Below, one piece after another: positions 14,579-29,807 of a stretch of DNA of 64,000 nt (position 1 is the first letter of the stretch; every line of letters starts with the position of its first letter). Origin of the DNA: Candidatus Methylomirabilales bacterium (GTDB lineage: Bacteria; Methylomirabilota; Methylomirabilia; Methylomirabilales; CSP1-5); contig JBHIAH010000003.1 in NCBI GenBank assembly GCA_046758505.1, positions 1 to 64,000 on the forward strand, read 5' to 3'. The position numbers and the translations under genes were made by a program. Below the pieces are notes generated by a model. It was given only the letters and a program-made list of their open reading frames with translations, was not told the DNA's origin and searched no databases.

Positions 14579-15583
14579 TTATCCGATTCGTTCAAGAACT
14601 TCCTGATTTCGCATCACTTCTGCCTTGTCCCCAAACGTGGCAAGGCACAGCAGACCAATACCCACCCATACGAGTTCCCTGATCCTCCGGATAAGACCCA
14701 GCGCCAATCCCGCCGCGGGCCCGAGTCCCATGATCTGGAAAATCAAAACCTTGCCAGCCTCCTGCGTACCGGCCTGCCAGGGGACGAAGAATAAGGCCGC
14801 GCTGATAATTAAGGACAGAGATTCGATCACAAAAGCCGTCACCCATGAGGTCGACAGCCCTAAGAAGACGAGGATCAGAAAGATCTCCACGATGCCCTCG
14901 GCCCAGCCCACTAGGTTGAGGACAAGCGATAGCACGAAGTCTCTCCCTTGGTTTTGATACACCGATGCGATGGCCTCGTCCATCCGTTTGATTTTCTCAA
15001 GACGGGCGTGCAAGAACGGTCTGCCCACGTGCCAGGCCGCCAGGGTCCTGGAGAGCCATCCGAACATCCCACGGCGCTGACCGTAGTAAAGGACGGCCAG
15101 GCCCACCGCGATGATCACAAGCGGGAGGACAAGCGCAAGGCGGATCCCAGGGGGCAGGTCAACAGTCGCCAGCGCAAGCGAACCGCCCAGAATCATGATG
15201 AGAAGCTGAGCCAAGACGAACGAATACTTCGCCACCGTCACCGAGGCGAGACCGCTTGACCAGCTCAAGTGGGCCTTCAGCAGCCTAGCCTTCACAGGCT
15301 CCCCTCCCATACTCGCGGATGGAATCAAGTAGTTGAATGCCTCGCCGGCCAGGCGCGCCCTGAGCAGGGCACCGAAAGGAACCTTCCGCTCCGCTCTGGG
15401 AAGGTTCCAGTGCCACGCCCAGGCAAAAATCGTGTGACTGAAAGAGCGCAACGCGACGATGGCGAGGAACCCCCATCCGACCCGACGGAGCTGAAGAAGC
15501 ACATTCTCCCATCCAAGCTCCGCCAGCATGAAAAAGAAGATGGCGAAGCCGATCGCGGCAATAGTTATCTTAAACCCTTTCAT
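14579..15583 (-). CDS. Flippase-like membrane protein (LPG-synthase TM / HpnL-like family)
   Basis: RLAGEAFNYLIPSASMGGEPVKA, FFVPWQAGTQEAG, RRIRELVW; multiple TM helices. Confidence 0.85.
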   Translation of the reverse strand: MKGFKITIAAIGFAIFFFMLAELGWENVLLQLRRVGWGFLAIVALRSFSHTIFAWAWHWNLPRAERKVPFGALLRARLAGEAFNYLIPSASMGGEPVKARLLKAHLSWSSGLASVTVAKYSFVLAQLLIMILGGSLALATVDLPPGIRLALVLPLVIIAVGLAVLYYGQRRGMFGWLSRTLAAWHVGRPFLHARLEKIKRMDEAIASVYQNQGRDFVLSLVLNLVGWAEGIVEIFLILVFLGLSTSWVTAFVIESLSLIISAALFFVPWQAGTQEAGKVLIFQIMGLGPAAGLALGLIRRIRELVWVGIGLLCLATFGDKAEVMRNQEVLERIG

Positions 15584-17063
15584 AGAAAAAGGATGCTCCA
15601 TACAGGACGACGAGTCCCAGCAGATACACGCTGATCCCCACACTCACCATCCACAAAAACCAGGACAACCGCCCGACGAGGGCCAGGAGGAGAACGAGAT
15701 ACGTGTAGTCTCTTCGGGAAAGGCCGTCCAGGACCCGCGTCAAGTGTCCCAGGAGACGGGCGGGCAACCCGGATCTTGTGGCGTGCGAGTCCTGGAAAGG
15801 CGAGAACGACCGGAACGATCCGGAGAAGCCGCCGGACTGGTGGACGAGTAAGAACAAGACGCCCATGCAGGCGAGCGCGCCGCCCGCAGCGACGGCACCT
15901 AACAGCAAGGGAAGCGGCTGGCCGCTCTGGCGGCTGACGCCAAGTCCTATTCCGAAAAATCCTGCCGCGGTGACGAGGCCGTCCCCGACAACGTCGAGGA
16001 TCCCGCCCAAGCGCGATGTTTGGAACTTCAGCCGGGCGATTTCTCCGTCGCAGCCGTCCAAGGTAGATTGGGCCTGAAATAAGAGGGCGCCTCCGATCAT
16101 GGATACGGTCCCCCCCTGCGCGAAGAGCACAGCAGCGACGATCCCCACAACAAAGAGGGCACCTGTGATCTGATTCGGGGTGACAGATGTGTCGGCGAGA
16201 AATCGCGTCACCCGCAGGGAAATCGGGCGGTTCAGTCTTTTGGCGAGAAACCCGTCCTGGGGTTTGGTGAGCTTTTGAAACAGCGACTTTTCGGCAAGCC
16301 TGAGTGCGTCCGGCGTATCCACATCCAGCCAGAAATCTCCGCCGATGTCTAAGGTCCTCACCTGCCGTTGTGCGGCCAGATGACCGATGCCGTCCGAGAG
16401 GGAGCACTCGGTGTGCATTTGGCACCAGCGCAGGGCAGCAAAGAGGGCAGGAGTGCAGAGAAAGAGCCCCGTGTCGATGGCGTTGTAATCGGCCAGGTTT
16501 TTGCCGATGGCCGCGACATGGTGATCTCGGAGGAGCACCTTCGTGGCATCGTCGAGGTCGGGGACCGCGCGGATTTTCCGGTCCACCGCGAGGATCACTT
16601 CTCCGTCTGCAATCGGGGCATGGATCAAGCGCCTGACGGTTTCGTCCGAAAAGAGATGGTCGGACATGCTGAGGAGAAATGGGCCCTCCAGGTAGCCCTC
16701 TGCCGCGAGGACTGAAAGGCCATTTTGCTTCTCCCACTCTGGATTTTCCACCCACTCGATCGCCACCCCCAGATTCCTCGCCGTGATCCATTGCCGGATC
16801 TCGGGACCGCGGTAACCGATCACCACGAGGAACTCCGTTACACCGGCCTCTTTTATCGTCAAGATCGTCCGTTCGAGAAGGGACAGTCCCCCCGCTCGCA
16901 CAAGCGGTTTGGGCCAATGCTGCCTCCCCGGTTCTTGCAAGCGGCCCCCACGGCCGGCGGCGATAATGACCGCTTTCCCAACGGCGTGCGGCTTCGGCGT
17001 TCCTGTCTCGTACCCCTCGGGAACGGCGACACCCCCGAGGGGAACGCGGGATGGCTCAGTCAT
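15570..17063 (-). CDS. Bifunctional nucleotidyltransferase / CDP-alcohol phosphatidyltransferase (IPCT/DIPPS-type fusion)
   Basis: N-domain IIAAGRGGRL, PKPL, NGLS, MSDH, IDTGLF, WLDVDT; C-domain TPNQIT and LDGCDGEIARLKFQTSRLGGILDVVGD CDP-alcohol motif. Confidence 0.88.
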   Translation of the reverse strand: MTEPSRVPLGGVAVPEGYETGTPKPHAVGKAVIIAAGRGGRLQEPGRQHWPKPLVRAGGLSLLERTILTIKEAGVTEFLVVIGYRGPEIRQWITARNLGVAIEWVENPEWEKQNGLSVLAAEGYLEGPFLLSMSDHLFSDETVRRLIHAPIADGEVILAVDRKIRAVPDLDDATKVLLRDHHVAAIGKNLADYNAIDTGLFLCTPALFAALRWCQMHTECSLSDGIGHLAAQRQVRTLDIGGDFWLDVDTPDALRLAEKSLFQKLTKPQDGFLAKRLNRPISLRVTRFLADTSVTPNQITGALFVVGIVAAVLFAQGGTVSMIGGALLFQAQSTLDGCDGEIARLKFQTSRLGGILDVVGDGLVTAAGFFGIGLGVSRQSGQPLPLLLGAVAAGGALACMGVLFLLVHQSGGFSGSFRSFSPFQDSHATRSGLPARLLGHLTRVLDGLSRRDYTYLVLLLALVGRLSWFLWMVSVGISVYLLGLVVLYGASFFYERV

Positions 17064-17779: not shown

Positions 17780-19159
17780 TCATCCACGATCGCCCCGTCT
17801 CTGCCCCCCTGCCGATTGCCCACCCTCGTAATAATCCAGACCCGAGTGATCAAGCACCTCTTCGCCTACCAGGATGCGGAGCGTGTTCGTCAGCTTCAGG
17901 TGCTGGATGAATAGGTCGTGTTCGGGCTTGAGGTCCGCACGAGCCATCGGAGACTTGAAGTAGAAGGATAACCACTCTTGAATGCCCGACAGTCGCGCCC
18001 GCTGCGCGAGGTCCAGGAAGAGAATCAGGTCCAGGACGATGGGAGCCGCCAGAATGGAATCTCGGCACAGGAAATTCACTTTGATCTGCATCGGTTGACC
18101 CAACCAGCCGACGATGTCGATATTATCCCAGCCTTCCTTCGCATCTCCCCGCGGGGGATAATACTCGATGCGAATCTTGTGATAATACTGGCCGTACAGA
18201 TCGGGATAGAGATCCGGCTGCAGGATCGAATGCAACACCCCGCTCTTCGTCACCTCCTTTCCCCGGAACGAGCCGGGATCATCCAGCACTTCGCCATCCC
18301 TGTTGCCGAGAATGTTGGTGGAAAACCAGCCTTCGACCCCCAACATCCGGGCCTTCAGGCCAGGGGCGATCACTGTCTTCATCAACGTCTGCCCTGTCTT
18401 AAAGTCTTTCCCCGCGACCGGCACCCCTTGCCTGGCCGCGAGTTCGACGAGCGCCGGGATATCGACCGAGAGATTCGGCGCCCCGTTGGCGAAGGGGATG
18501 CCGCACCGGATGGCGGCATAGGCATAGATCATCGAGGGGGCGATCTCCGGGGCATTGTCCTTCAGCCCGCGCTCGAACGCCTCGAGAGTCTCGTGGGTGG
18601 GCCCGGCCTCAGAAAAGACCTCCGTCGAACCACACCAGATCATGACCGCGCGCTGCACTCCGTGGGCGCCCATGAATGCCTCGATGTCGTGCATGATCGC
18701 CTCGGCCAGATCCATCTTCGTGGAACCGGTCTTGACGTGCTTCCCGTGCAAGTTGCGGACGTACGCCTGCTCGAACACGCCTGGCCACGGCGTGATGGCC
18801 TCGAGTTCCCCTCGAATTGGGGCGAGCGTTTCGGCCGGCAGGACACCCGCAACGCAGGCAGACTGGTAGGCGTCCTCGGGAAAGATGTCCCACCCACCGA
18901 AGACAAGATCCTCAAGATGGGCCAACGGTACCAGGTCCTTGATCGGAACGAAGCGCGGCTGGGTCCGTTTGCCCAGCCGAACCTTTTGCATCTGGGTCAG
19001 CGAACCATACGGGTTGGCGAGTCCTCTGTTCACGAGATAGACCCCCGCGATGAGAGTCGTGCTCACCGCCCCCAGGCCCGGCAGCAGGACTCCGAGCCTG
19101 CCCCGCGCCGGCGCAATGTCTCTGGATAGCTCGGGATAAAACGAACTCCGTTCACTCAT
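17780..19159 (-). CDS. ino1: Myo-inositol-1(3)-phosphate synthase
   Basis: GLGAVSTT, FGGWD, CGSTE, FANGAP, AGKDFKTGQT, WFSTNILGNRDG, YYPPRGDAKEGWD, CRDSILAAP; ATGA overlap with the upstream gene. Confidence 0.95.
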   Translation of the reverse strand: MSERSSFYPELSRDIAPARGRLGVLLPGLGAVSTTLIAGVYLVNRGLANPYGSLTQMQKVRLGKRTQPRFVPIKDLVPLAHLEDLVFGGWDIFPEDAYQSACVAGVLPAETLAPIRGELEAITPWPGVFEQAYVRNLHGKHVKTGSTKMDLAEAIMHDIEAFMGAHGVQRAVMIWCGSTEVFSEAGPTHETLEAFERGLKDNAPEIAPSMIYAYAAIRCGIPFANGAPNLSVDIPALVELAARQGVPVAGKDFKTGQTLMKTVIAPGLKARMLGVEGWFSTNILGNRDGEVLDDPGSFRGKEVTKSGVLHSILQPDLYPDLYGQYYHKIRIEYYPPRGDAKEGWDNIDIVGWLGQPMQIKVNFLCRDSILAAPIVLDLILFLDLAQRARLSGIQEWLSFYFKSPMARADLKPEHDLFIQHLKLTNTLRILVGEEVLDHSGLDYYEGGQSAGGQRRGDRG

Positions 19160-20415
19160 GGCAACCTCTCCTCGCGATGTGAGGGGAGACGAGCGGTCCA
19201 CAGCAACACGAGAAAGAATATCGGAGCGCCCACCCCCGCTAGGGCCAAAAACCACGCCGCCTTTCCGAACGCCGAGAACAGGACCACGCCGTAGATGAAG
19301 TCTCGGCGAGCCAGCCAGTCCAACAGACGCGACAAGCCCGGTCCCGGCGATCGTACAAGCGAGGTAAAGAGCGGGCCATCCGCGTCCTTCGCTCGCATGG
19401 TATGCCAATACGCAAACCCGGCCGAGCCGACGGAGCCGGCGACCGCCAAGGCCCCGAGTAGCAAGGGCCACGTCGCCTGAGTGGCCAGACTCCACCCGAC
19501 CGCCATACAGAGGAACACGGCGACATGCACCACGTTATCTCCCCAGAAATCGAACAGGCCGCCCCAGCGAGACTCCTGAAGCTTCAACCGTGCCAGCTCG
19601 CCGTCGCAGCCATCCAGGATGGAGTGCAACAGAAAGAGCAGCCCGCCTGCCAGCTGATACGCCGCGCTGGATGACAGAAAAAAGGGGGCACCCACCAGCC
19701 CAATCCCTACACTCACCGCGGTCATGGCCCCGGGCGTCATGCCGGTCGAGACCAGCCGGCGCGTAATCCCCAGAGAGATCCGCCGCTCGACGTGACGCGA
19801 CATGAACCCCTCGTTCTCCTTGATCAGCCCGCGTAGGAGCCACGCCTCGGCGTTCGGGACATCGCGGGGCGTGCCGACAGCCATCACTCCCTCCCGACCC
19901 AGGGGCTGATATACAGGCGTGACGAGCTGGGCCAGCGCGGCGAAGAGGTCCGACGCCCCGAGGCCGCCCGACACTACCGGGAGGATCGCCCGCGCATCAA
20001 CCGCGTCAATCACCGCCACCAACTTTCCATCCCCATACAGCTGCCCCGGTGCGATCGGCATTTCCAGCAGCGCCCGTAACCACTTCGGCCGCGGAAGGAC
20101 GTTCGCCGCCAGCAACACCAGTCGCCCGGCCGGGAGCGGCGGGATCGGATCACCGGGCGAGAGCACGGTGACTCGTGAGCTATCGAGGAGAGGGGTGATC
20201 TCCGCGGGGGTCGGGGTGAGGATCAGAATCTGCCCGAAGCCGGCCCGACGGGCTGCCACCACACTCCGATGCAGCAGGGGAAGACCCAAGAGCATCGTAC
20301 CGGGCGACACTGGTGCCTCTCCATCCGCGTTATCGGGTGGGACGAGTAAGAGACTCGACGGCGTCACGCCCTCTTCGGAGTGCCGGCCTGCCGTCCCGGC
20401 GCTCACCGATTCCAT
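19156..20415 (-). CDS. CDP-alcohol phosphatidyltransferase-family protein with degenerate N-terminal nucleotidyltransferase-like domain
   Basis: LDGCDGELARLKLQESRWGGLFDFWGD motif and RRDF in the TM region; N-terminus GLPLLHRSVVAARRAG resembles an NTP transferase but lacks AAGxGxR. Confidence 0.85.
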   Translation of the reverse strand: MESVSAGTAGRHSEEGVTPSSLLLVPPDNADGEAPVSPGTMLLGLPLLHRSVVAARRAGFGQILILTPTPAEITPLLDSSRVTVLSPGDPIPPLPAGRLVLLAANVLPRPKWLRALLEMPIAPGQLYGDGKLVAVIDAVDARAILPVVSGGLGASDLFAALAQLVTPVYQPLGREGVMAVGTPRDVPNAEAWLLRGLIKENEGFMSRHVERRISLGITRRLVSTGMTPGAMTAVSVGIGLVGAPFFLSSSAAYQLAGGLLFLLHSILDGCDGELARLKLQESRWGGLFDFWGDNVVHVAVFLCMAVGWSLATQATWPLLLGALAVAGSVGSAGFAYWHTMRAKDADGPLFTSLVRSPGPGLSRLLDWLARRDFIYGVVLFSAFGKAAWFLALAGVGAPIFFLVLLWTARLPSHREERLP

Positions 20416-21485
20416 TTCCCCTCCTCCGCTCCGCGCGCTCCAACCAACGCCGACGGCCCGGGAACGGGAAGCGACGCCCCGCCCTGCCTGCTCGACTCTT
20501 GGGCGAGGGCCACAAGGGTGGCACAGAGAGAGGCCTCCGCGAGGTTCCCACCCCCCACGGTCGAGCCACCGCTCACCGCCGTCACGAAGCCGCTGGCCAC
20601 GCCTGCGAACCAGTCGGCGTGATGCGATCCCTCGGATAACGGCGGCGAAAAGGTCCATCGCCGCTCGGGCCGCCCGGATGCCTCTTGACGCAGCACCACC
20701 GTGCTGTCCTCAACACGCATTGTTCCCCGTGTGCCGTGCAGCTCCGCGACGTTTCGCCTCACATCAGCCGCCCAGGTGAGGTACACCTCAACCGCCGCCT
20801 GTGGGAGCTCGAGTCGCACGGTCGCCGTATCCTCCAGCGGGACCTGCGTGAACCGCCGGGTTTCAAGCCGGGCGCTGACCCGAGCCGGCGCCTGACCCAA
20901 CCAGCCCTGCAGCACATAGAACGCATGCCACCCATGGTCCACGAGCACCCCCCCGCCCGCGGTGGCCGGATCGAGCCGCCAGTTGCCAGCGCGGTCCCCA
21001 CCACCCGCGGCCGGTTTCGTCCGCAGCGTCTCCCAGCGGCAGCCCCTCACCTCTCCAATCGCGTCCTGCTGCAGCAGGTCCCGGACCCATCGGATGATCG
21101 GCGCATGGTGCCAGTTGTGGACGGTGTGCAGCACCCGGTCGGTCTCCGCGACGAGCGCCACCAACCCGCCGAGGTCCTCCACCCGACTCACCAAGGGCTT
21201 TTCGCAGAGGACATGCAGGCGGTGCTCAAGGGCGGTCCGGACCAGCCCTGCATGCGTTGCGGGCGGGGTGCAGATATCCACGAAATCGAGTCGCTCCGCC
21301 GTCAGGAGGTCCTCGACGGAGTCGTACCAGTGGACCGAGGGGAGGTGACACTGCAGTTCCCGCTCCCCTGTCCGGCACGGATCGCTTGCAGCCACAATGG
21401 CAACATCCCGGTGCTCCAGCCATCCCGGAAGATGCCCGTGGATGGCGACATTCCCCACCCCGACGATCGCTCCCCGGCAGGTCAT
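20403..21485 (-). CDS. Gfo/Idh/MocA family oxidoreductase
   Basis: GAIVGVGNVA, DICTPPATH, HVLCEKPL, GGGVLVDHGWH, LEDTA. Confidence 0.9.
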   Translation of the reverse strand: MTCRGAIVGVGNVAIHGHLPGWLEHRDVAIVAASDPCRTGERELQCHLPSVHWYDSVEDLLTAERLDFVDICTPPATHAGLVRTALEHRLHVLCEKPLVSRVEDLGGLVALVAETDRVLHTVHNWHHAPIIRWVRDLLQQDAIGEVRGCRWETLRTKPAAGGGDRAGNWRLDPATAGGGVLVDHGWHAFYVLQGWLGQAPARVSARLETRRFTQVPLEDTATVRLELPQAAVEVYLTWAADVRRNVAELHGTRGTMRVEDSTVVLRQEASGRPERRWTFSPPLSEGSHHADWFAGVASGFVTAVSGGSTVGGGNLAEASLCATLVALAQESSRQGGASLPVPGPSALVGARGAEEGKWNR

Positions 21486-21486
21486 C

Positions 21487-22815
21487 CTATCCAAGCCCCC
21501 ACTGCTCGGCGACCACGGTCATGGCTTCATCCAGGATCGCCAGCCCCTGCAGTGCGGTCTCCTCGCTGATAACCAACGGGGGATTGATGCGGATGATGTG
21601 CGAATAACACATCGCCACCAGACCCCGCCGCAGGCACTCGTGAAAGAGCGCCCGCGTTGCCTCCCTCGGCAGGGGCTCTTTCGTAGTGCGGTCCTTCACC
21701 AGCTCGAGCCCGAGCATCAGCCCCTTTCCCCGCACGTCTCCCACACATCGAAATTTCTCTTTGAATGCTTCGAGTCTCGCCAGCATGACCGCCCCGACGC
21801 GTTCCGCATTTGTGACCAGGTCCTCTTTCAGAATGATTTCCAATGAGGCGAGGCCGGCGGCGGCGGCGAGCGGATTGCCCCCGTAACTCGATGAGCTCCC
21901 GCTGGGATTGGCAAAGGGCTTCGCCCGGGTCAGTTCCTCCGTCGAGATGACCCCGCTGACCGGAAACCCGCCTCCCAACCCCTTGCCCACCGTCACCACA
22001 TCCGGCACCACCCCCTCATGATCGCACCCCCACATCTTCCCGGTCCGTCCGAAGCCGGTCAGCATTTCATCGGCGATCAAGAGCGCGTCGTGCTCCTTGG
22101 CAATCGCCTGGACCGCCCGGAGAAAGCCCTCCGGGGGGATCACATTCCCGGCCGTGCCTTGCATCGGTTCGACGATAATCGCGGCAATTTCCCCCTGCGT
22201 CTGATACCGGATAACATGGCGAAGGTGCTCCGCACAGGCAATCCCACAGCCCGGGAAGGTCAGGTTCAAGGGGCACCGGTAGCAGTTGGCGTAGGGTGAG
22301 ACGTAGAGACCCGGCATGAACGGACCCAGATGTTGCTTAAAGTCGTCCCCGAGGAGTCCCAACACCCCCCCCGTCTTCCCGTGAAAGCCCCCCCAGAACC
22401 CGATAAACTCAAACTTGCGGGTCGCCGACTTGGCCAGCCGGAGGGCGGCTTCCACCGCCTCTGCACCCCCCGAGAACAGCTGGATGCGCGTGAGCCCGTG
22501 CGGGCTGACAGAGGCGAGACGCTCGAGGAACCGGGTACGAGTCTCCGTCGTGAAGCTGCCGAACGTGAGCCGATCGATCTGCCGCTTCAACGCATCCACA
22601 TAGGTCGGATGACAGTGGCCGACGCTGCCGACGCCGATCCCGGCAATGAAATCAACGTACTCGTTCCCATCCTCGTCGATCAGCGTGCACCCTTGCCCCC
22701 GGGCCATGGCCACCCCCGAGTAGAGGGCGATCGACTGAAGCCCGGGGGCCATGTGGTGTTGCTCCCGCCCGACGATCTCTCGCGAGCGGGGACCCGGTAC
22801 GTTCCGCCCCATCAC
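21487..22815 (-). CDS. Class III PLP-dependent aminotransferase
   Basis: DFIAGIGVGSVGH, SGGAEAVE, GGFHGKT, IIVEPMQG, IADEMLTGFGRTG, PDVVTVGKGLGGG, VRGKGLM. Confidence 0.92.
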   Translation of the reverse strand: MMGRNVPGPRSREIVGREQHHMAPGLQSIALYSGVAMARGQGCTLIDEDGNEYVDFIAGIGVGSVGHCHPTYVDALKRQIDRLTFGSFTTETRTRFLERLASVSPHGLTRIQLFSGGAEAVEAALRLAKSATRKFEFIGFWGGFHGKTGGVLGLLGDDFKQHLGPFMPGLYVSPYANCYRCPLNLTFPGCGIACAEHLRHVIRYQTQGEIAAIIVEPMQGTAGNVIPPEGFLRAVQAIAKEHDALLIADEMLTGFGRTGKMWGCDHEGVVPDVVTVGKGLGGGFPVSGVISTEELTRAKPFANPSGSSSSYGGNPLAAAAGLASLEIILKEDLVTNAERVGAVMLARLEAFKEKFRCVGDVRGKGLMLGLELVKDRTTKEPLPREATRALFHECLRRGLVAMCYSHIIRINPPLVISEETALQGLAILDEAMTVVAEQWGLG

Positions 22816-23651
22816 ACCGATCCCCCGGTGAAACGCGCCTCCAAGTATGACGCAATCCGCGCCGACGCTTCATCCCGGTAGAGCGCGAAGCTGGGCCACG
22901 CATTCACATCGATTAACACCGGCACTCCCTCCCTCCCCACGATGGCATCCCCCCCGTACACCTCGAGGCCTAACACTGCCGCCGCCCGTTGTGCCAATGT
23001 GGCGAGTGCGGTCGGATCGAAGGGGAAGCCGGCCAGTTGCTGATCCCTGTGGTAGAACCACTGGAACCATGACTCCCGCCCCTGCAGGCGGCCGGGGTCG
23101 CCTACCCCGTAGAATTTGATCAGGTCGCCCGGCACATGCCCCTGAATCACCGCCCCGGGAATGCCGCGGTCGGCGAGGTGACGGAGGGCCTCATCCACTG
23201 CCGCCCTGGTGGGCGCAAACACCACATCGCCTTCCCGGATGTTATGCACATCGGCCCGTTTCACCCACACCCGTTCAGGGACAGGCGGGGCGGCCGATGC
23301 CGTCGAGACGATGACACTCGGCGGAAATGAGACGCCCGCCCGGTGAAAGAGGGGAATCATCCGGTCCCGATACGTGTTCAGAACTGCCGAGGGGCTATTG
23401 ACCTGAAGCACCCCCTCCATCTCGGGGCGCCGAAGCAGACGGAGGATCCCCGGACGCTCACACATCAGGAAGATGAACGCCACCGGGTGCTCGATGACCC
23501 CGCCCACCTCGTCCGGGTTCTTCAGACTGACCTGAAATCCCCTGGCTTCGAGATGTTTGGCGGTCAGGCGCAGGATTTCTGCATCATCAAATTCCCGACC
23601 CGGCGAATGGGGGCGCTCCCGAAAAATCCCGAGGCAGCAGTGACGGCTCAC
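22812..23651 (-). CDS. ATP-grasp fold protein (ITPK1-like motif pattern)
   Basis: VWVKR, IQGHVPGDLIKFYGV, GLEVYGGDAIV, LIDVNAWPSF; GTGA overlaps at both ends. Confidence 0.75.
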   Translation of the reverse strand: MSRHCCLGIFRERPHSPGREFDDAEILRLTAKHLEARGFQVSLKNPDEVGGVIEHPVAFIFLMCERPGILRLLRRPEMEGVLQVNSPSAVLNTYRDRMIPLFHRAGVSFPPSVIVSTASAAPPVPERVWVKRADVHNIREGDVVFAPTRAAVDEALRHLADRGIPGAVIQGHVPGDLIKFYGVGDPGRLQGRESWFQWFYHRDQQLAGFPFDPTALATLAQRAAAVLGLEVYGGDAIVGREGVPVLIDVNAWPSFALYRDEASARIASYLEARFTGGSV

Positions 23652-24367
23652 GTTGCACCCCCCGACTGGCCTCGCCGTGGCTGATCGTTCTGGTGGGCCA
23701 GCGTCTCGGCGAGGGCGACATCCTCGGCCCGGTCCACATCCACCACGGCCGGAAGGACCACCCCGTACAGCGGCTCTCCCCGCTGCAGAAGCCACACCAG
23801 GAACTCCCGCAGCCGTTTCACCTCGGGCGGAGGAGACAGCCGCCGCACCCGCTCGGGGACGAGATACAGGCCGGCGGTCACCACGTCGCCGGAGTCCCCA
23901 CCGAGGCTGGCGACGCGACCCGACGCATCCAGGGTGACCCATAACGGTCTTTCATCATCCACGAGCGGAGTCACCGCGAGGACACTGGCGTCTGGCGGAA
24001 ACAGCCGCGCCGCTCTCACGAACGTCCGGAACCCTTCTTCAGGGCACCAGGCATCCACCGTGGAAATCAGGGCACGACCGGCGCCCAGGCGCCCGGCCAC
24101 TTCCCGAAAGCTCTCCAGCGACGAGTCGGTCGTCTTCACAATGACCTGAAGGTCGAGACGGGGGAAGCGGGCCCGCGCCCAGGTCTCGCACTCGCGTGCC
24201 TGCTCATTGACGATGATCACCAGGGACGAGACACCCGCCCCCAGCAGATTTCGGATGGTGTGCTCGATCAGGGGGATGCCAGCTACAGGAACCAGGGGCT
24301 TCGGCATGGTCCAGCCTGCCTGCCGCAGGCGGGCGCCTGCGCCCGCCGCGATGATCCCCCCGCGCAT
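23648..24367 (-). CDS. Sugar-phosphate nucleotidyltransferase (NTP transferase)
   Basis: GGIIAAGAGARL, PKPLVPVAGIPLIE, STVD, TAGLY, VDVDRAED. Confidence 0.88.
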   Translation of the reverse strand: MRGGIIAAGAGARLRQAGWTMPKPLVPVAGIPLIEHTIRNLLGAGVSSLVIIVNEQARECETWARARFPRLDLQVIVKTTDSSLESFREVAGRLGAGRALISTVDAWCPEEGFRTFVRAARLFPPDASVLAVTPLVDDERPLWVTLDASGRVASLGGDSGDVVTAGLYLVPERVRRLSPPPEVKRLREFLVWLLQRGEPLYGVVLPAVVDVDRAEDVALAETLAHQNDQPRRGQSGGAT

Positions 24368-24381
24368 GATCGCCTCACCGT

Positions 24382-25107
24382 TCACAACAACAACTCCCGC
24401 AACCCCTCGAGGGTGTGGACCACCGCGTCGCCCGGACAGCACGGCCCTTCCTCGGGAGCCACCTCGGGCGTCAACCAAACGTGAGCCATTCCGACCTCGC
24501 GGGCCCCGGCCATGTCCCGCCGCAACGAATCTCCCACAAAGACCGCCTGTGCCGGCATAGCCTGCAACGCCGTCAATGCCGACCAAAAGATCCGCGGATC
24601 CGGCTTGACGCATCCGACGTTCACCGAGTCGACAACGACCGTCAGGAACGGACTCAGTCCGACCTCGTGGCAGACCGTGGCGAGGTTCCCGTAGAAATTC
24701 GAGACGATCCCGAGCCGATACCGGCGACTCAGGTGATCCAAGAGGGACACGTTGGAGGAGAGGCAGTCCCGGGCCTCATTCAGGAACCGCGTGGCGATCC
24801 GTCCACTTCGCCCGGCATTCCGCACGCCCAGACCGTCGGTCAGCCCCTGTACCAGTCGCCCGACGGTATCCTCAAACGAAAGCGTGGCAGGAATGGCACC
24901 GACCAGCGCATCATCGGCGGCGTAGAACGCCGGGGCAAATTGCTCGGATGAGAGCTCCACGCCTTCATCCCGGTACAAGCGGAAGAAACGCTCCTTCCAG
25001 GCAACGCCATTGGCATCCAAGGTGCCACCAAAATCGAACAGCACAGCGGTCCGCGCAGCGTGATCCAGCTCCGGCTGTGGACGTTGGTGCTGTTGCATTC
25101 CGTTCAT
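24382..25107 (-). CDS. HAD-family hydrolase/phosphatase
   Basis: LFDFGGTLD, IVSNFYGN, KPDPRIF, FVGDSLRRDMAGA. The second Asp of the DxD motif is Gly. Confidence 0.88.
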   Translation of the reverse strand: MNGMQQHQRPQPELDHAARTAVLFDFGGTLDANGVAWKERFFRLYRDEGVELSSEQFAPAFYAADDALVGAIPATLSFEDTVGRLVQGLTDGLGVRNAGRSGRIATRFLNEARDCLSSNVSLLDHLSRRYRLGIVSNFYGNLATVCHEVGLSPFLTVVVDSVNVGCVKPDPRIFWSALTALQAMPAQAVFVGDSLRRDMAGAREVGMAHVWLTPEVAPEEGPCCPGDAVVHTLEGLRELLL

Positions 25108-26123
25108 GCCAGCGATTTCTTGCTTGGCGAATCTGAGAGGGCCGCCCGAACAAACCGCCCGGCGTGTCTCTTCAACAAGACCACCAACCCCGGGATCACC
25201 CAGACCAGCTCCCGCCCCCGACGCACAATCCCGTAGGCGACCCCCTGTGCGGCCGGAAGGCCCAGCAGGACAAAAACCCCGACCCGCACCCCCTCCGCGC
25301 TGCCCACCCGCCCCGGGACAAAGGTGAGGAGCGAGTTGAGGGTCAACGCGAGCGCCTCGACGGCCACGGCTGTCACCCACCCTTCCGTCGGGGACAGAAG
25401 ACGCAGGACCACGTAGGTTTCCAGGAACCCGCCAGTCCACCCCACGAGGCACCAGCCCATCGCGGCAGCAAACGATCGCCTGTGCGTCCCGTAGAACGTC
25501 TGAATCCTGGTATCGAACTCTTCCGCCAATGGTTGATACGGCTTGAGACGGGACGCCAAGAGCTTCCAGCGGGCCAGCCGATGCAGGACCGGCGCGAAGG
25601 TCCCCTTGCGCAGCGCCCACGTCAAGAGGAGGAGACCCCCTCCCAGGCCAGCAAGGATGGCCGCGGCGGCCAGCTTGACCGGAGCCGAGAGATCAAATTG
25701 GGTCAGGCAGAGGCCCACGCCCCCCACCAGCAACACCCATTGCGCCAAGAGCTCGGCGTGCTTGTGAACCGTGACCGAAGCGACCGCATGCCCAAGTCCC
25801 AGGATCTCTCCCGACAGATGGGCCTTCACCGGTTCTCCCGCAAGATTGCCCGACGGGACGAGGTAGTTGATCGAATCACCAGCGAGGTATACCGCGAACA
25901 GGTTCCGGAAGTGTGAAGACCGCACGGGGGGGTCAATGAGCACCCACCATCCAGTCATGAAGGCAAGTTGCGCAAACAGATAGAGGACCACGAGGCCGAC
26001 AAACCACCCCCCGATCGCCGTCAGGTTCGTCTGAATGGCCGGCCACCCCACCACCCAGAGGATCCAGGCGATCAGGCCAACCCCGGCCACAACCAACCCG
26101 GCACTCCCAAGCTGCTTCAGCAT
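25104..26123 (-). CDS. Flippase-like membrane protein (LPG-synthase TM / HpnL-like family)
   Basis: YLAGDSINYLVPSGNLAGEPVKA, FVPGRVGSAEG, RRGRELVW; multi-TM. Confidence 0.85.
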   Translation of the reverse strand: MLKQLGSAGLVVAGVGLIAWILWVVGWPAIQTNLTAIGGWFVGLVVLYLFAQLAFMTGWWVLIDPPVRSSHFRNLFAVYLAGDSINYLVPSGNLAGEPVKAHLSGEILGLGHAVASVTVHKHAELLAQWVLLVGGVGLCLTQFDLSAPVKLAAAAILAGLGGGLLLLTWALRKGTFAPVLHRLARWKLLASRLKPYQPLAEEFDTRIQTFYGTHRRSFAAAMGWCLVGWTGGFLETYVVLRLLSPTEGWVTAVAVEALALTLNSLLTFVPGRVGSAEGVRVGVFVLLGLPAAQGVAYGIVRRGRELVWVIPGLVVLLKRHAGRFVRAALSDSPSKKSLA

Positions 26124-26494
26124 CCGTCGCTCACCCACCTGCCGCGCTCCCGCGCCATCTACCGACGCTGTCGTAACAGAGAAAAACCCCACCGTGTGTC
26201 AGGCGCTCCGCCTCGGAGGCCTGGCCGGCGGCCGGTTTCAGTCTCCAGGCGCGGATGTTCCGGTGGCATACGTGGCCAGGGGCGGTCTCTCCCCTCACCC
26301 GACAACACGCGTGGTCGGCGGGGGGAAAAGACAACCCTCCCACTCCAGGAGCCCGGGGGGGCGCGGCTCGGGGAGAGGGCTCTTGCGCATATCCCTTCTG
26401 CGAGAGGGCCACGGCACCGCTCTCCCAGCTGACAGATCCCACTCGTATCATAAGTTCTTAGTATACATGACCTCGCCGTGGGGAAAAAAGAGAA

Positions 26495-28426
26495 TTAGGC
26501 TGGCCTGGTTGACAGGGCCTCTCGGTAAACGCCGAGGGCCCAAACAGGGAAATAGATCGGGTAAAGGTGATACTTCAGGAAGAAAACGCGGGGAAAGCCG
26601 GTCCCGTTCCAGAAGGCATCGTCCCAGGAGCCGTCCGGTCGCTGGGTTTCGAGCAGGTACCGGATCCCCCGTGCCACGGCCGGGCTCCTCTCCTCCCCTG
26701 CCGCGAGAAGGCCGAGGAGGGCCCAGGCGGTCTGGCTGGGCATACTCTCCCCTTTCCCGGCGAGGGCAGGATCCATATAGCTCAGCAGGGTCTCGCCCCA
26801 GCCGCCGTCCTCATTCTGGCACCCCTCCACCCAGTGAACGGCCCGGCGGACGTACGGGGCGTTCAGATCCTCCCCGATCGCCCCGAGACCGCGGAGGACC
26901 GACCACGTCCCATAAATGTAATTCGCCCCCCATCGACCATACCAGCCGCCGTGCGCGCATTGGGTCTCTTTGATGAAGGCCAGCGCCCTGGCCGCCTGGG
27001 GATGCGACGGGCGCAGGTTGAAGATGCCCAGGGTCTCCAGCCCGCGTCCCGCCAAATCCTCGGTGGGCGGATCGAGGAGGGCCCCGTGGTCAGCAAAGGG
27101 AATGTTATTGAGGAGCAAATGGTCGTTGTCCGCGTCAAAAGAGCCCCATCCCCCATTCTCCGACTGCATCCCAAGAAACCAACCAAGCCCAACTTCGATG
27201 GCCTGCCGCACATCGGGCCGATCCGGGAGCTTGAGCTTCTTGAGGGCCATCAACACCATCGCGGTGTCATCCGTATCGGGATAGAAGTCGTTCCGAAACT
27301 GGAATGGCCATCCCCCGGGGGGGAGGTGCGGGCGCTTCACCTGCCAGTCGCCCCGGCGCAGAATTTGCTCCTGAAAAAGCCAGTCGGCAGCTTGCAACAG
27401 CGCGGGGTCGTCCGGAGAGAGACCGGACTCCACCAGGGCGTTCACCGCAAGGGATGTATCCCAGACGGGAGAGAGACAGGGTTGGAGATGGAAGCTGTCG
27501 GCCTCCTCGATCCCCAGCCGCTCGATCTCCTTCCACCCTTCGGCCATCTTCGGATGATCTTCGGCGTAGCCCACGCTGTGCAAGGCCATCACGGCATTGG
27601 CCATGGCCGGATAGATCCCCCCGAATCCCCCGGGCCCCATCCGCTTCAGGGTCCATGCCAGGGCCTGCTGGCGCGCCCGCGCCCGGAAGGGGCGCGGGGC
27701 CCACCGTTCCAGTCCGGGGAGGAGCGTATCCAGCCCGATGAAGAAGTTCTTCCAGGAGAAGAGGTGCTCGGTGCGGGGAAATCGCAGATCGGCCTCGGCC
27801 CGGGACGGCAGGTACAGCTCATCAATGTCCGCGCCCGGGGGGATCGCACAGACCGGCTTCAGATCCATGAGGATGAGCAGGGGGACGACAACCGTTCGAG
27901 ACCAGTATGAGACCTCATAGAGGTTAAAATAGGAGAGGCGCGGGAGGAGCATGATCTCGACCGGCATGGTCGGCACCCCCCGCCAGTCGTACTGTCCGAA
28001 GAGGGCCAGGGCGATCTTGGTAAAGACGTTCGCCTTGGTCACCCCCCCCTTGGCCAGGATGTTCTCCCGCGCCCGGCGCATGAAGGGCTCGTCGGGTGAA
28101 TGCCCCATGAGCTTGAAGGCGAAGTAGGCCTTCACCGTGGCACTGATATCACTGGGGCTTCCCGGGAAGAGATCCCATCCCCCATCGGAGAGCTGCTTGG
28201 CCTGGAGGTAATTGGCGGCCTTCCGCTCCCGGTCGCGATCCACCCGACCCAGAAAGTGGCGGAGCATGATGTACTCCGAGGTCAGGGTGCTATCCGCCTC
28301 CAGTTCGCCAAGCCAGAACCCCTCGGGATGCTGGAGGCTCAGGAGATACTTTTGCGCCCGCCGAATAGCCCCTTCCAGGATCTCAGCCGTGGGACCGACG
28401 TCACCCGTCGAAGATGACAAACGCAT
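26495..28426 (-). CDS. shc: Squalene-hopene cyclase
   Basis: Catalytic YPDTDDT (DxDD), QPCLSPVWDT, QW repeats (QHPEGFW, QNEDGGW, QRPDGSW), GTGFPRVFFLKYHLY. Confidence 0.97.
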   Translation of the reverse strand: MRLSSSTGDVGPTAEILEGAIRRAQKYLLSLQHPEGFWLGELEADSTLTSEYIMLRHFLGRVDRDRERKAANYLQAKQLSDGGWDLFPGSPSDISATVKAYFAFKLMGHSPDEPFMRRARENILAKGGVTKANVFTKIALALFGQYDWRGVPTMPVEIMLLPRLSYFNLYEVSYWSRTVVVPLLILMDLKPVCAIPPGADIDELYLPSRAEADLRFPRTEHLFSWKNFFIGLDTLLPGLERWAPRPFRARARQQALAWTLKRMGPGGFGGIYPAMANAVMALHSVGYAEDHPKMAEGWKEIERLGIEEADSFHLQPCLSPVWDTSLAVNALVESGLSPDDPALLQAADWLFQEQILRRGDWQVKRPHLPPGGWPFQFRNDFYPDTDDTAMVLMALKKLKLPDRPDVRQAIEVGLGWFLGMQSENGGWGSFDADNDHLLLNNIPFADHGALLDPPTEDLAGRGLETLGIFNLRPSHPQAARALAFIKETQCAHGGWYGRWGANYIYGTWSVLRGLGAIGEDLNAPYVRRAVHWVEGCQNEDGGWGETLLSYMDPALAGKGESMPSQTAWALLGLLAAGEERSPAVARGIRYLLETQRPDGSWDDAFWNGTGFPRVFFLKYHLYPIYFPVWALGVYREALSTRPA

Positions 28427-29171: not shown

Positions 29172-29807
29172 TCATTCTTCGGCCCGCTTGACGCGCATTT
29201 TCTTGACCAGCTCGTCGAACGAGGAGGTCCGGATGATCCTGTTGAACTGTGACTGATAATTGGTGACGATGCTCACCCCGTCGATCACGACATCGAACAG
29301 CTCCCATTGCCCGGTGCGGCGCTGCAGTCGATAATCGACCGGCAGGCGATCCCCCCGCTTGTCCACGAGGACCGTCTGCACGAGGGCCTTGGTCCCATCC
29401 ACCGATTGTCCTTTATAGATGATCCGCTGCTTCGGCAGTGAATCCAGGACCATTCGGCTGTAGGAGCGCTCGAAGAGCTCCCCGAACAGGGCCACGAAGT
29501 CTTGCCGCTGCTTTCCCGTCAACGTGGCCCAATGGGCATTCAGGGATCGCTCCGCCATCTCCGCATAGTTGAACCGGGCGGCGATCAGCTTTCGAATCTC
29601 CCGTTTCCGCCTCCCTTCCAACTCCGGCCCCTGCAGGGCGGGATCCTTCAGGACGTGCAGGGCCCTCTCCAGGATGTCCCGGACCCGATCGAGGGGCGCA
29701 CCTTCGGCTGCCCTGACCGAGACGGGCAAGAGCAGTCCCGGCAAAAGGATTCCGAGCCACAAGATGCGGCATACCCGAAAGCCGTGCCGCCGCTTGGATC
29801 TTCTCAT
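29172..29807 (-). CDS. MlaC/Ttg2D (HpnM-like) periplasmic lipid-binding protein
   Basis: FNYAEMAERSL, LFERSY, VDYRL, FDVVIDGVSIVTNYQSQF. Confidence 0.9.
   Translation of the reverse strand: MRRSKRRHGFRVCRILWLGILLPGLLLPVSVRAAEGAPLDRVRDILERALHVLKDPALQGPELEGRRKREIRKLIAARFNYAEMAERSLNAHWATLTGKQRQDFVALFGELFERSYSRMVLDSLPKQRIIYKGQSVDGTKALVQTVLVDKRGDRLPVDYRLQRRTGQWELFDVVIDGVSIVTNYQSQFNRIIRTSSFDELVKKMRVKRAEE

What the first reader, a model, noticed from the sequence alone, without database searches (positions are those of the whole stretch)
22812..23651. ATP-grasp protein with inositol-phosphate-kinase (ITPK1-like) signatures next to ino1
Seen: DLIKFYGVG, GLEVYGGDAIV and LIDVNAWPSF. Known: RimK-type ligases typically read D-x-R and E-V-N-x-x-P at these positions, while ITPK1 inositol phosphate kinases read K-V-Y/F-V-x-G and V-I-D-I-N-x-F-P. 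Inference: the K-for-R and D-for-E pattern plus ino1 in the same operon suggests a bacterial inositol-phosphate kinase, i.e. inositol bis/polyphosphate synthesis in a bacterium. The resemblance is recalled by eye, not computed.
Basis: partly seen in the sequence, partly recalled or inferred. Interest (0 to 1): 0.8.

Follow-up and report, generated by a model that had tools for sequence, protein, structure and literature searches.

The report
Orphan ATP-grasp enzyme of inositol-lipid operon
This gene encodes a widespread, unnamed ATP-using enzyme that is a fixed but overlooked part of a bacterial operon for inositol-based membrane-lipid head groups, and it most likely adds a phosphate to an inositol phosphate rather than joining amino acids.

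Summary
A 279-aa minus-strand gene (22812-23651) carries the three quoted motifs, which are invariant across the family.

It folds as an ATP-grasp enzyme but matches no Pfam or NCBIfam model. Homology to ITPK1 is not shown. The best sequence and fold matches are ligases (RimK, PsnB, ArgX/LysX, CPS). ITPK1 matches only at the C-terminal Mg2+ motif, below significance, and at a lower fold score (Z 18.2 against 20.6-21.8).

Context still favours a kinase:
- The gene sits in a conserved block: HAD, NTP-transferase, ATP-grasp, (aminotransferase, Gfo/Idh), CDP-alcohol transferase, MIPS.
- It is fused to the nucleotidyltransferase in several genomes.
- It keeps its partners where the amine module is missing.
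- It lacks RimK's R-x-N-x3-G-G motif.
- It lies in the "alternative inositol-lipid cluster" of Phocaeicola, Prevotella and Tannerella, whose known lipid is plain inositol-phospho-ceramide, so its step leaves no trace in the product.
- In Runella and Dyadobacter a myo-inositol-kinase-like PfkB replaces MIPS while the ATP-grasp gene stays.

Best reading (about 0.45): an inositol-monophosphate kinase that makes a transient bisphosphate for CDP activation, not polyphosphate signalling.

The scan had already flagged this operon on other genomes.

The parts
22812..23651 (-). The finding: a 279-aa orphan ATP-grasp enzyme. Proposed ATP and Mg2+ residues are K131, K179, D235, D248 and N250. Other family invariants are R11, S16-P17, D23, N85, R95 and H136.
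   Evidence: There is no Pfam or NCBIfam family.
23648..24373 (-). Stand-alone nucleotidyltransferase (NTP_transf_3). Its stop overlaps the ATP-grasp start. The two are fused in other genomes.
   Evidence: Pfam 3.8e-11. Fusions. Adjacent to 72 of 88 family copies and in 73 of 80 Bacteroidota loci.
24382..25113 (-). HAD-IA hydrolase with an atypical motif I, D-[YF]-G-G-T, which lacks Asp at +2.
   Evidence: Near 71 of 88 copies and in 71 of 80 Bacteroidota loci.
25104..26192 (-). LPG_synthase_TM / HpnL-like membrane protein (flippase-like).
21487..22815 (-). Class-III aminotransferase. An accessory amine module, absent from 22 of 88 family copies in the first set and from all 80 Bacteroidota loci.
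20403..21494 (-). Gfo/Idh/MocA oxidoreductase (weakly IolG-like). Partner of the aminotransferase.
19156..20412 (-). CDP-alcohol phosphotransferase. Its roughly 200-aa N-terminal domain is not recognised as an intact nucleotidyltransferase.
   Evidence: Near 76 of 88 copies.
17780..19153 (-). myo-Inositol-1-phosphate synthase (ino1 / MIPS).
   Evidence: PF07994, 2.5e-96.
15570..17063 (-). IPCT/DIPPS-like fusion of a nucleotidyltransferase and a CDP-alcohol transferase. This is a second, simpler CDP-inositol module.
   Evidence: NF041135, 242.7 bits against a cut-off of 580.
14579..15643 (-). Second LPG_synthase_TM flippase-like protein.

Best explanation
The gene encodes a catalytically intact member of an unnamed ATP-grasp family. 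This family is a core enzyme of a widespread operon for inositol-phosphate lipid head groups.

Most likely it is a kinase, not a ligase. It would phosphorylate a ring hydroxyl of the inositol monophosphate supplied by MIPS, or in some Bacteroidota by a PfkB inositol kinase. The product would be an inositol bisphosphate. The proposed later steps are:
1. The adjacent, sometimes fused, nucleotidyltransferase turns one phosphate into a CDP ester.
2. The CDP-alcohol transferase passes the phospho-inositol to a membrane alcohol such as ceramide, diacylglycerol or, here, an unknown lipid.
3. The HAD enzyme removes the spare phosphate, either before activation or after transfer.

In this window's version, the Gfo/Idh oxidoreductase and aminotransferase additionally aminate the ring.

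Shown: fold, conserved ATP/Mg2+ residues, synteny, fusions and phyletic pattern. Inferred: kinase chemistry, substrate, order of steps and the role of the HAD.
For: 1. The enzyme looks intact. The AlphaFold model has pLDDT 86 and an ATP-grasp fold. K131, K179, D235, D248 and N250 are invariant in 155 sequences.

2. It is tied to head-group activation.
- Among 88 family copies in 80 loci from many phyla, a same-strand neighbour within 6 kb is a CDP-alcohol transferase in 76, an NTP transferase in 72 and a HAD in 71.
- In 80 Bacteroidota loci the counts are 79, 73 and 71.
- Fusion proteins occur. Six of nine long representatives are NTP-transferase + ATP-grasp. The other three are HAD + NTP + ATP-grasp, ATP-grasp + HAD, and ATP-grasp + CDP-alcohol transferase.
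- Single open frames span NTP and ATP-grasp in L001 and L002. Open frames of 506-532 aa are seen in four phylum relatives.

3. It does not depend on the amine.
- 22 of 88 copies, and 80 of 80 Bacteroidota loci, lack the aminotransferase.
- Residues of the N-terminal loop vary with lineage, not with presence of the amine module.

4. The step is traceless.
- Tannerella forsythia ATCC 43037 carries NTP, ATP-grasp, CDP-alcohol transferase and HAD in a row.
- Its inositol lipids are plain 1-P-myo-inositol dihydroceramides, and no other lipid took up labelled inositol (passages of PMC4587543).
- The gene order in a Phocaeicola MAG matches the 'alternative cluster' of Heaver et al., whose hosts make PI-DHC.

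5. It is not simply the inositol kinase.
- In 17 of 80 Bacteroidota loci a PfkB kinase occupies the MIPS slot while the ATP-grasp and HAD genes remain.
- The best solved relatives of that PfkB are the myo-inositol kinases TM0415 (2.4e-31) and TK2285 (8.5e-8).
- T. forsythia has a 51%-identical orthologue elsewhere in its genome.

6. RimK's R-S-N-x-x-x-G-G motif aligns to W-F-x-W-F-Y-x-x. The Arg is not conserved and the Asn position is F or Y in nearly all members.

7. There is a precedent. ITPK1, an ATP-grasp kinase, phosphorylates Ins3P and Ins1P (abstract and passages of PMC6900528). The family shares ITPK1's D-x-N-x-[FW]-P-S-[FY] Mg2+ motif.
Against: - No assay exists, and nothing in the sequence proves a kinase.
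- The nearest relatives by sequence profile are ligases: PsnB 2.9e-5 and RimK 3.4e-5, each over the whole domain. ITPK1 reaches only 0.014-0.024 over 40 residues.
- Fold ranking also puts ligases first: CPS Z 21.8, ArgX 21.0, RimK 20.6, against ITPK1 18.2 at rank 18. The Foldseek top 50 are all ligases.
- The central region holding the K-motif has no detectable similarity to ITPK1.
- No conserved Arg sits where ITPK1's R212 or RimK's Arg would lie.
- The HAD lacks the Asp+2 general acid/base in 38 of 38 sequences. Its proposed role as the phosphatase that removes the spare phosphate is therefore uncertain.
- The PfkB specificity is inferred from relatives that phosphorylate different positions.
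- Inositol bisphosphate and CDP-inositol-phosphate have not been reported in these bacteria, as far as my searches show.
Confidence: 0.45

Rival explanations
1. Carboxylate-amine or carboxylate-hydroxyl ligase. The enzyme would form an acyl phosphate and attach an amino acid or small acid to the (amino)inositol head group, in the manner of RimK, LysX or Ddl.
For: - The best sequence and fold matches are ligases.
- In this window the gene directly precedes an aminotransferase that could supply an amine nucleophile.
- MprF-type flippase homologues lie in the cluster.
Against: - The family persists without the aminotransferase in 22 of 88 copies and in 80 of 80 Bacteroidota loci.
- Known lipids of cluster-bearing T. 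forsythia and of B. vulgatus / P. veroralis are undecorated.
- RimK's R-x-N-x3-G-G motif is absent.
- The flippase homologue also accompanies the Bacteroides thetaiotaomicron-type cluster, in a paper whose text never mentions ATP-grasp.
Confidence: 0.2
2. Kinase for the free cyclitol. The HAD would first dephosphorylate the MIPS product. The free inositol, or inosamine after oxidation and transamination, would then be re-phosphorylated by the ATP-grasp enzyme at the position that the nucleotidyltransferase needs. This resembles the phosphatase, dehydrogenase, aminotransferase and kinase order of streptomycin biosynthesis (recalled).
For: - Every gene of the window's version receives a role.
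- It would explain a shift of the phosphate from the 3- to the 1-position.
- T. forsythia uses only exogenous inositol, and no inositol kinase had been identified there.
Against: - In 17 of 80 Bacteroidota loci a myo-inositol-kinase-like PfkB sits in the same operon as the ATP-grasp and HAD genes. This order would make the PfkB, HAD and ATP-grasp steps futile or redundant.
- T. forsythia keeps the HAD although it has no MIPS, and it has a PfkB orthologue.
Confidence: 0.12
3. The ATP-grasp enzyme and the nucleotidyltransferase activate the other partner. They would phosphorylate and then CDP-activate an alcohol other than inositol phosphate. Inositol phosphate would be the acceptor, as in PIP, AIP or DIPP synthases, and the HAD would remove its phosphate.
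For: - The CDP-alcohol transferases score weakly against AIP and PIP synthase models, enzymes that use inositol phosphate as acceptor.
- The HAD would have a natural role.
Against: - The final lipid in T. forsythia holds only ceramide, phosphate and inositol. The 'other alcohol' would therefore have to be ceramide.
- A soluble sugar-phosphate-type nucleotidyltransferase and an ATP-grasp enzyme acting on a lipid are without precedent that I know of (recall).
Confidence: 0.08

Closest known systems
ITPK1 / inositol 1,3,4-trisphosphate 5/6-kinase family (Pfam PF05770; PDB 2qb5, 1z2n)
   Same: - ATP-grasp fold (Z 17.3-18.2, about 245 residues aligned).
- Asp rather than Glu in the D-x-N Mg2+ motif, followed by [FW]-P-S-[FY].
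- Lys where RimK has Arg in the strand before the active site (the ITPK1 side is recalled, plus K199 named).
- ITPK1 accepts Ins3P, the MIPS product.
   Different: - No significant sequence match: PF05770 scores 11.6-13.1 bits against a cut-off of 23, in 4 of 10 members, at the C-terminus only.
- No conserved equivalent of R212.
- The fold is closer to ligases.
- The setting is a lipid head-group operon, not soluble polyphosphate synthesis.
RimK / LysX-ArgX / PsnB-type ATP-grasp ligases
   Same: - Best profile hits (E about 3e-5 over residues 52-262).
- Best fold matches (Z 20.5-21.0).
- Same three-domain size of about 280 aa.
   Different: - No Pfam RimK hit over threshold.
- The R-x-N-x3-G-G motif is missing.
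- D replaces E in the Mg2+ motif, and K replaces R.
- The genomic partners are a nucleotidyltransferase, a CDP-alcohol transferase and a HAD, not peptide or amino-acid pathways.
'Putative alternative inositol lipid cluster' of Bacteroides (Phocaeicola) vulgatus and Prevotella (Heaver et al. 2022, PMC9246714)
   Same: - Same core genes: NTP transferase, CDP-alcohol transferase, HAD, MIPS and an LPG-synthase-like protein.
- A Phocaeicola MAG shows the order NTP, ATP-grasp, transferase, flippase, HAD.
   Different: - The paper's text never mentions the ATP-grasp gene (0 occurrences). Its proposed pathway gives that gene no role and gives the HAD an ad hoc one.
- The window's version adds an oxidoreductase and aminotransferase pair and sits beside hopanoid genes.
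CDP-inositol routes: IPCT/DIPPS of hyperthermophiles and IPCT/BEPIS of Rhodothermus marinus (Jorge et al. 2015, known to me only through Megson et al.)
   Same: MIPS, a cytidylyltransferase and a CDP-alcohol transferase. The head group, not the lipid, is CDP-activated.
   Different: As described, those operons consist of MIPS, IPCT and BEPIS, with no ATP-grasp or HAD. The window also holds an IPCT/DIPPS-like fusion of that simpler kind (15570-17063).
PIP synthase plus PIP phosphatase route (mycobacteria, B. thetaiotaomicron BT_1523 / BT_1525)
   Same: The logic of a phosphorylated lipid intermediate that a phosphatase then trims. This is what the proposed model predicts.
   Different: There the lipid is CDP-activated, and the spare phosphate comes directly from Ins3P. 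No extra kinase is needed.

Membership tests
ATP-grasp superfamily | Three-domain ATP-grasp fold | tested here: met
   AF2 model with pLDDT 86.2. At least 500 Foldseek PDB hits at E <= 0.001, all of the top 50 being ATP-grasp enzymes. VIA Z up to 21.8 over 1-279.
ATP-grasp superfamily | Two ATP-binding Lys residues and the D/E...D/E-x-N Mg2+ ligands | tested here: met
   K131, K179, D235, D248 and N250 are invariant in 155 sequences. They align to the RimK equivalents.
ITPK1 / Ins134_P3_kin (PF05770) | Match to the family model above its gathering score | tested here: not met
   No hit at E <= 0.01. At E <= 10, 4 of 10 members score 11.6-13.1 bits against a cut-off of 23, at the C-terminus only. 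The window protein itself has none.
ITPK1 / Ins134_P3_kin (PF05770) | Domain-wide sequence similarity to solved ITPK1 structures | tested here: not met
   Profile against PDB gives E 0.014-0.12, confined to query residues 214-261. The central 86 residues alone find no ITPK1.
ITPK1 / Ins134_P3_kin (PF05770) | Inositol-phosphate contact residues (H167, K199 and R212 of human ITPK1, as named in PMC6900528) | tested here: inconclusive
   H136 and K179 are invariant in comparable stretches. No conserved Arg follows (position 197 is R/Q/H/K/Y/F). No residue-level structural alignment was available.
ITPK1 / Ins134_P3_kin (PF05770) | Phosphoryl transfer to inositol phosphates | not testable with these tools
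   Needs an enzyme assay.
RimK / GshB / LysX-type ligases (PF08443) | Match to the RimK model above its gathering score | tested here: not met
   None at E <= 0.01. 2 of 10 members score 11.5-12.9 bits against a cut-off of 21.
RimK / GshB / LysX-type ligases (PF08443) | R-x-N-x-x-x-G-G motif. It is seen as F-R-S-N-L-H-R-G-G in three RimK sequences. Its role in acyl-phosphate and substrate binding is recalled. | tested here: not met
   It aligns to W-F-(R/Q/Y/F)-W-F-Y-(H/P)-x-(D/E)-x. The Asn position is F or Y in nearly all members and the Arg is not conserved.
'Alternative inositol-lipid cluster' (Heaver et al. 2022) | Clustered NTP transferase, CDP-alcohol transferase, HAD and MIPS | tested here: met
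   Window genes. The same block appears in 160 loci, including Phocaeicola, Prevotellaceae, Parabacteroides and Tannerella.

The most novel reading that the evidence does not exclude
This is the founding member, not yet recognised, of a bacterial family of ITPK-like inositol-phosphate kinases. It would make an inositol bisphosphate that is then CDP-activated. That would define a third route to inositol lipids: head group activated as CDP-inositol-phosphate, with the spare phosphate trimmed by a HAD enzyme. The route would operate in gut and oral Bacteroidota (Phocaeicola, Prevotella, Parabacteroides, Tannerella). An aminated version would operate in NC10, Rokubacteria, Acidobacteriota, Nitrospirota and other phyla.
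Probability: 0.35. Interest if true: 0.75.

Novelty: new variant of a known kind. Interest (0 to 1): 0.6.

Why it matters
- Inositol phosphates beyond the monophosphate are regarded as a eukaryotic and Asgard-archaeal trait. A bacterial ATP-grasp inositol-phosphate kinase would change that view.
- It would also supply the missing step in the unproven 'alternative' inositol-lipid pathway of abundant gut and oral Bacteroidota. In that pathway two conserved genes, the ATP-grasp and the HAD, currently have no convincing role.
- The family is large: 1002 clusters at 50% identity and roughly 600 or more species genomes per scan.
- It has no Pfam or NCBIfam model.
- It occurs in cultured, tractable strains (Runella, Dyadobacter, Sphingobacterium, Parabacteroides), so the question can be tested directly.

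Tried and rejected
- Pfam and NCBIfam scans of the protein found no family. A lenient scan of 10 members gave only sub-threshold C-terminal hits.
- A PF05770 search of the window's own genome and 14 control genomes found nothing anywhere, so it is uninformative.
- I could not obtain ITPK1 sequences or coordinates from the tools. No profile-profile or residue-level structural comparison with ITPK1 was therefore made.
- The central 86 residues searched alone against PDB gave only chance hits.
- The protein atlas returned only the family's own unnamed clusters. One of them has RimK on 14% of its members.
- Specificity-determining positions between clusters with and without the aminotransferase: only L27/F, T93/C and V135/F differ, and these track lineage. 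This gives no evidence that the substrate differs.
- The HAD compared with lipid-phosphate phosphatases: 10 of 39 weakly match PF09419 (Gep4-type PGP phosphatase), with best E 4.7e-4. The PDB neighbours are generic HAD-IA proteins. Not decisive.
- Literature searches for any paper linking an ATP-grasp enzyme to CDP-inositol or bacterial inositol lipids found none. The library lacks most subscription papers. Jorge et al. 2015 was not read.
- No complex-prediction job was run, because I make no binding claim.
- I rejected the idea that the hopanoid neighbours define the function. The family's core partners are the same in Bacteroidota, where the loci I annotated show no hopanoid genes.
Full report
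**The observation**

Window 22812-23651 on the minus strand translates without stops to 279 residues. It contains DLIKFYGVG (176-184), GLEVYGGDAIV (228-238) and LIDVNAWPSF (246-255). The GTG start overlaps the stop of the upstream gene as GTGA. Homologues are 273-284 aa long and cover 96-100% of this form. The 376-aa ORF listed is therefore an over-extension. The gene is single-copy in its 2.99-Mb genome, which is 96.8% complete. Earlier scan notes and the nearest database hits place the genome in Methylomirabilales (NC10).

**What the protein is**

Neither Pfam nor NCBIfam recognises it. A lenient scan of ten diverse members gave only sub-threshold, C-terminal matches:
- Ins134_P3_kin in 4 of 10 members;
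- RimK in 2 of 10;
- ATPgrasp_ST in 2 of 10;
- TTL and ATP-grasp_3 in 1 each.

An AlphaFold2 model built from 19 homologues is confident (pLDDT 86.2, pTM 0.86) and shows an ATP-grasp fold. Foldseek's top 50 PDB chains are all ligases: Ddl, RimK, PsnB and ArgX.

An alignment-independent search of 48,161 chains ranks them as follows:
- CPS, Z 21.8
- ArgX, 21.0
- LysX, 20.8
- RimK, 20.6
- human ITPK1, 18.2 (rank 18)
- PPIP5K2, 17.9
- Entamoeba ITPK1, 17.6

A family profile against PDB sequences finds PsnB (2.9e-5) and RimK (3.4e-5) across the domain. ITPK1 entries reach only E 0.014-0.024, over residues 214-255. The central 86 residues alone find nothing relevant. The protein is thus an orphan ATP-grasp family, marginally nearer to ligases. 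ITPK1 homology is not demonstrated.

**Conserved residues**

In 155 members from 160 loci the invariant residues are R11, S16, P17, D23, M63, N85, R95, W129, K131, H136, D142, V143, G175, K179, G233-G234-D235, D248, N250, W252-P253-S254-F255. R132 and R259 are nearly invariant.

Against RimK:
- K131 and K179 take the places of the ATP Lys and of RimK's 'D-I-R' Arg.
- D235, D248 and N250 are the Mg2+ ligands, with Asp where RimK has Glu.
- RimK's F-R-S-N-L-H-R-G-G aligns to W-F-x-W-F-Y-x-x-x-x. The Arg is not conserved, and the Asn position is Phe or Tyr.

The D-x-N-x-[FW]-P-S-[FY] stretch does resemble Entamoeba ITPK1. That K199 of human ITPK1 lies in a K-V-F-V-V-G strand is my recollection. 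The paper I read names only H167, K199 and R212 as conserved inositol-phosphate contacts.

**Genomic context in the window**

The gene lies in a minus-strand chain of overlapping or abutting genes:
1. LPG_synthase_TM / HpnL-like protein
2. HAD
3. NTP_transf_3
4. ATP-grasp
5. class-III aminotransferase
6. Gfo/Idh/MocA oxidoreductase
7. CDP-alcohol transferase
8. MIPS

An IPCT/DIPPS-like fusion and a second flippase-like gene follow. The squalene-hopene cyclase gene, an MMPL transporter, MlaC and HpnH lie nearby.

**Conservation of the context**

The family is large. There are 1949 database relatives and 1002 clusters at 50% identity. At least 596 of the scanned species genomes carry it. So do 45 of 81 sampled genomes of the phylum, or 36 of 65 high-quality ones. 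That tally includes one unpublished genome, and the distribution is patchy even within the genus.

In the 80 best loci, which span Methylomirabilota/Rokubacteria, Nitrospirota, Acidobacteriota, Verrucomicrobiota, Desulfobacterota, Gemmatimonadota, Ignavibacteria and Bacteroidota, there are 88 copies. Same-strand neighbours within 6 kb are:

| Neighbour | Copies of 88 |
|---|---|
| CDP-alcohol transferase | 76 |
| NTP transferase | 72 |
| HAD | 71 |
| aminotransferase | 66 |
| Gfo/Idh | 61 |
| flippase-like | 57 |
| MIPS | 28 |

Some loci are truncated, so they are lower bounds. Twenty-two copies lack the aminotransferase.

A second scan centred on Bacteroidota gave 80 loci:
- CDP-alcohol transferase in 79;
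- NTP transferase in 73;
- HAD in 71;
- MIPS in 46;
- a PfkB kinase in 17 (both MIPS and PfkB in one locus; neither within 8 kb in 18);
- aminotransferase or Gfo/Idh in none.

**Fusions**

Nine long representatives were scanned:
- Six are NTP-transferase + ATP-grasp.
- One is HAD + NTP-transferase + ATP-grasp.
- One is ATP-grasp + HAD.
- One is ATP-grasp + CDP-alcohol transferase.

At the DNA level, single open frames span both domains in L001 and L002. Four phylum relatives have open frames of 506-532 aa over the match.

**Link to published work**

Heaver et al. [quoted passage not shown] It comprises NTP transferase BVU_RS13095, phosphatidyltransferase BVU_RS13105, HAD BVU_RS13115 and MIPS, with an LPG-synthase-like gene nearby. 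Its hosts make PI-DHC.

'ATP-grasp' occurs nowhere in the text. A Phocaeicola MAG shows the order NTP, ATP-grasp, CDP-alcohol transferase, LPG_synthase_TM, HAD. This matches the gaps in those locus tags. The ATP-grasp gene therefore appears to be an unremarked member of that cluster. This is an inference, because I did not see the B. vulgatus record itself.

Tannerella forsythia ATCC 43037 carries NTP, ATP-grasp, CDP-alcohol transferase and HAD in a row. Megson et al. 2015 (passages read) report that:
- its inositol lipids are 1-P-myo-inositol dihydroceramides, about 25% of membrane lipid;
- inositol is solely exogenous;
- no MIPS, IMPase, inositol kinase or IPCT could be identified;
- no other lipid incorporated labelled inositol.

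**Why a kinase**

1. Adjacency and fusion with a sugar-phosphate-type nucleotidyltransferase is the usual arrangement for a kinase that makes the phosphomonoester to be nucleotide-activated. This is established pathway logic and remains an inference here.
2. The family does not need the amine module. Its N-terminal loop variants (G-R-E..D against N-H-I..N) occur both with and without that module. A ligase that uses the inosamine amine is therefore unlikely to be the family's function.
3. In T. forsythia, B. vulgatus and P. veroralis the end product is undecorated. The ATP-dependent step therefore leaves no trace, as a phosphate later removed would.
4. In Runella, Dyadobacter and Larkinella a PfkB kinase replaces MIPS while the ATP-grasp and HAD genes remain.
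   - The best solved relatives of that PfkB are the myo-inositol kinases TM0415 (2.4e-31) and TK2285 (8.5e-8) (activities from passages of PMC5931981).
   - T. forsythia and P. distasonis have orthologues elsewhere, at 51% and 55% identity. In P. distasonis the orthologue lies beside an MFS transporter.
   - The ATP-grasp enzyme is thus not merely the inositol kinase. It most simply acts on inositol monophosphate.
5. The RimK-type acyl-phosphate motif is missing.
6. ITPK1 shows that an ATP-grasp enzyme can phosphorylate Ins3P and Ins1P.

**Proposed mechanism (inferred)**

1. MIPS or PfkB supplies InsP.
2. The ATP-grasp enzyme converts it to InsP2.
3. The nucleotidyltransferase makes CDP-InsP.
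4. The CDP-alcohol transferase couples this to a lipid alcohol, giving lipid-P-InsP.
5. The HAD removes the spare phosphate, giving lipid-P-Ins.

Alternatively the HAD trims InsP2 before activation, which would move the phosphate from position 3 to position 1. Either order gives every conserved gene a role. Either also parallels the PIP-synthase/PIP-phosphatase logic of the B. thetaiotaomicron-type cluster. In this window the Gfo/Idh and aminotransferase pair would aminate the ring at an undetermined stage. The lipid acceptor is unknown.

**Caveats**

- No chemistry has been shown.
- Ligases remain the closest relatives by sequence and fold.
- No conserved Arg occupies the position of ITPK1 R212 or of RimK's Arg.
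- The HAD reads D-[YF]-G-G-T-[LI]-D in 38 of 38 aligned sequences, so it lacks the Asp+2 general acid/base of canonical HAD phosphatases. It keeps the S, K and G-D-S-x3-D motifs. It may therefore be an atypical phosphatase or a phosphotransferase.
- The PfkB's product position is unknown. TM0415 makes Ins1P and TK2285 makes Ins3P.
- I could not run a residue-level structural comparison with ITPK1.

**Earlier notes of this scan**

At least ten earlier notes on other genomes describe the same operon as an (aminated) inositol head-group pathway related to Heaver's cluster. I reached the Heaver link independently. One note (e1-7411021) prompted me to look for the kinase 'salvage' version, which I then found. 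The summaries I saw do not assign the ATP-grasp step.

**Verdict**

- The protein is an uncharacterised family within a known superfamily, with a directly testable role in a pathway relevant to abundant gut, oral and soil bacteria.

Noticed in passing
window 24382-25113 (-) and 38 homologues in loci L001-L157: The operon's HAD enzyme reads F-D-[YF]-G-G-T-[LI]-D in motif I. Gly replaces the Asp+2 general acid/base in 38 of 38 aligned sequences. Motifs II-IV (S138, K170, G-D-S-x3-D) are intact. This is atypical for a HAD phosphatase and may indicate a long-lived phospho-enzyme or a phosphotransferase.
   Followed up: partly
L078/L081 (Runella defluvii) 13680-14660 in L078; L083-L095, L104, L108, L112: In 17 of 80 Bacteroidota loci a PfkB kinase takes the place of MIPS in the operon. 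Its closest solved relatives are the myo-inositol kinases TM0415 and TK2285. Tannerella forsythia and Parabacteroides distasonis carry orthologues elsewhere (51% and 55% identity). This is a candidate for the inositol kinase reported as unidentified in T. forsythia.
   Followed up: partly
L030, L039, L041, L045-L047, L050, L053 (Acidobacteriota): These genomes carry a second, paralogous mini-cluster: flippase-like, HAD, ATP-grasp and CDP-alcohol transferase, with no NTP transferase, aminotransferase or oxidoreductase. It lies a few kb from the full cluster, on the opposite strand.
   Followed up: partly
L001 9089-10810; L002 8765-10807; G005, G028, G030, G057: The NTP-transferase and ATP-grasp domains lie in one open reading frame (open frames of 506-681 codons). 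These are natural fusions of the two enzymes.
   Followed up: yes
L058, L078, L081-L095, L124 and others: In Bacteroidota, a large CarboxypepD_reg + DUF5686 protein, a DUF4833 protein and a fatty-acid hydroxylase often flank the operon (25, 19 and 13 of 80 loci). Heaver et al. also noted the carboxypeptidase-regulatory-like neighbour (BT_1527 homologue).
   Followed up: no
window 19156-20412 (-); L034, L042, L051, L030: The CDP-alcohol transferase of the operon carries an N-terminal domain of about 200 aa. Pfam does not recognise it as an intact nucleotidyltransferase (best NTP_transf_3 E 0.098, in the window protein only).
   Followed up: partly
window 26495-28426, 29804-32578, 38081-39103: The operon sits inside a hopanoid and lipid-transport region: squalene-hopene cyclase, an MMPL/HpnN-like transporter, MlaC, a PagL-like protein, and HpnH-like radical SAM + DUF3463. 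In the Bacteroidota loci that I annotated (L058, L072, L078, L124) I saw no hopanoid genes. The link to hopanoids is therefore not a property of the ATP-grasp family as a whole.
   Followed up: partly
L056 9776-12139: ATP-grasp and aminotransferase appear in one open frame, but the ATP-grasp match is split into two pieces. This looks like a frameshift or assembly error in a long-read MAG rather than a real fusion.
   Followed up: no
own genus: The gene is patchy among close relatives. It was found in 5 of 10 genomes of the window's genus (counting the window's own) and in 16 of 35 genera sampled in the phylum. This suggests repeated loss or transfer of the operon.
   Followed up: no
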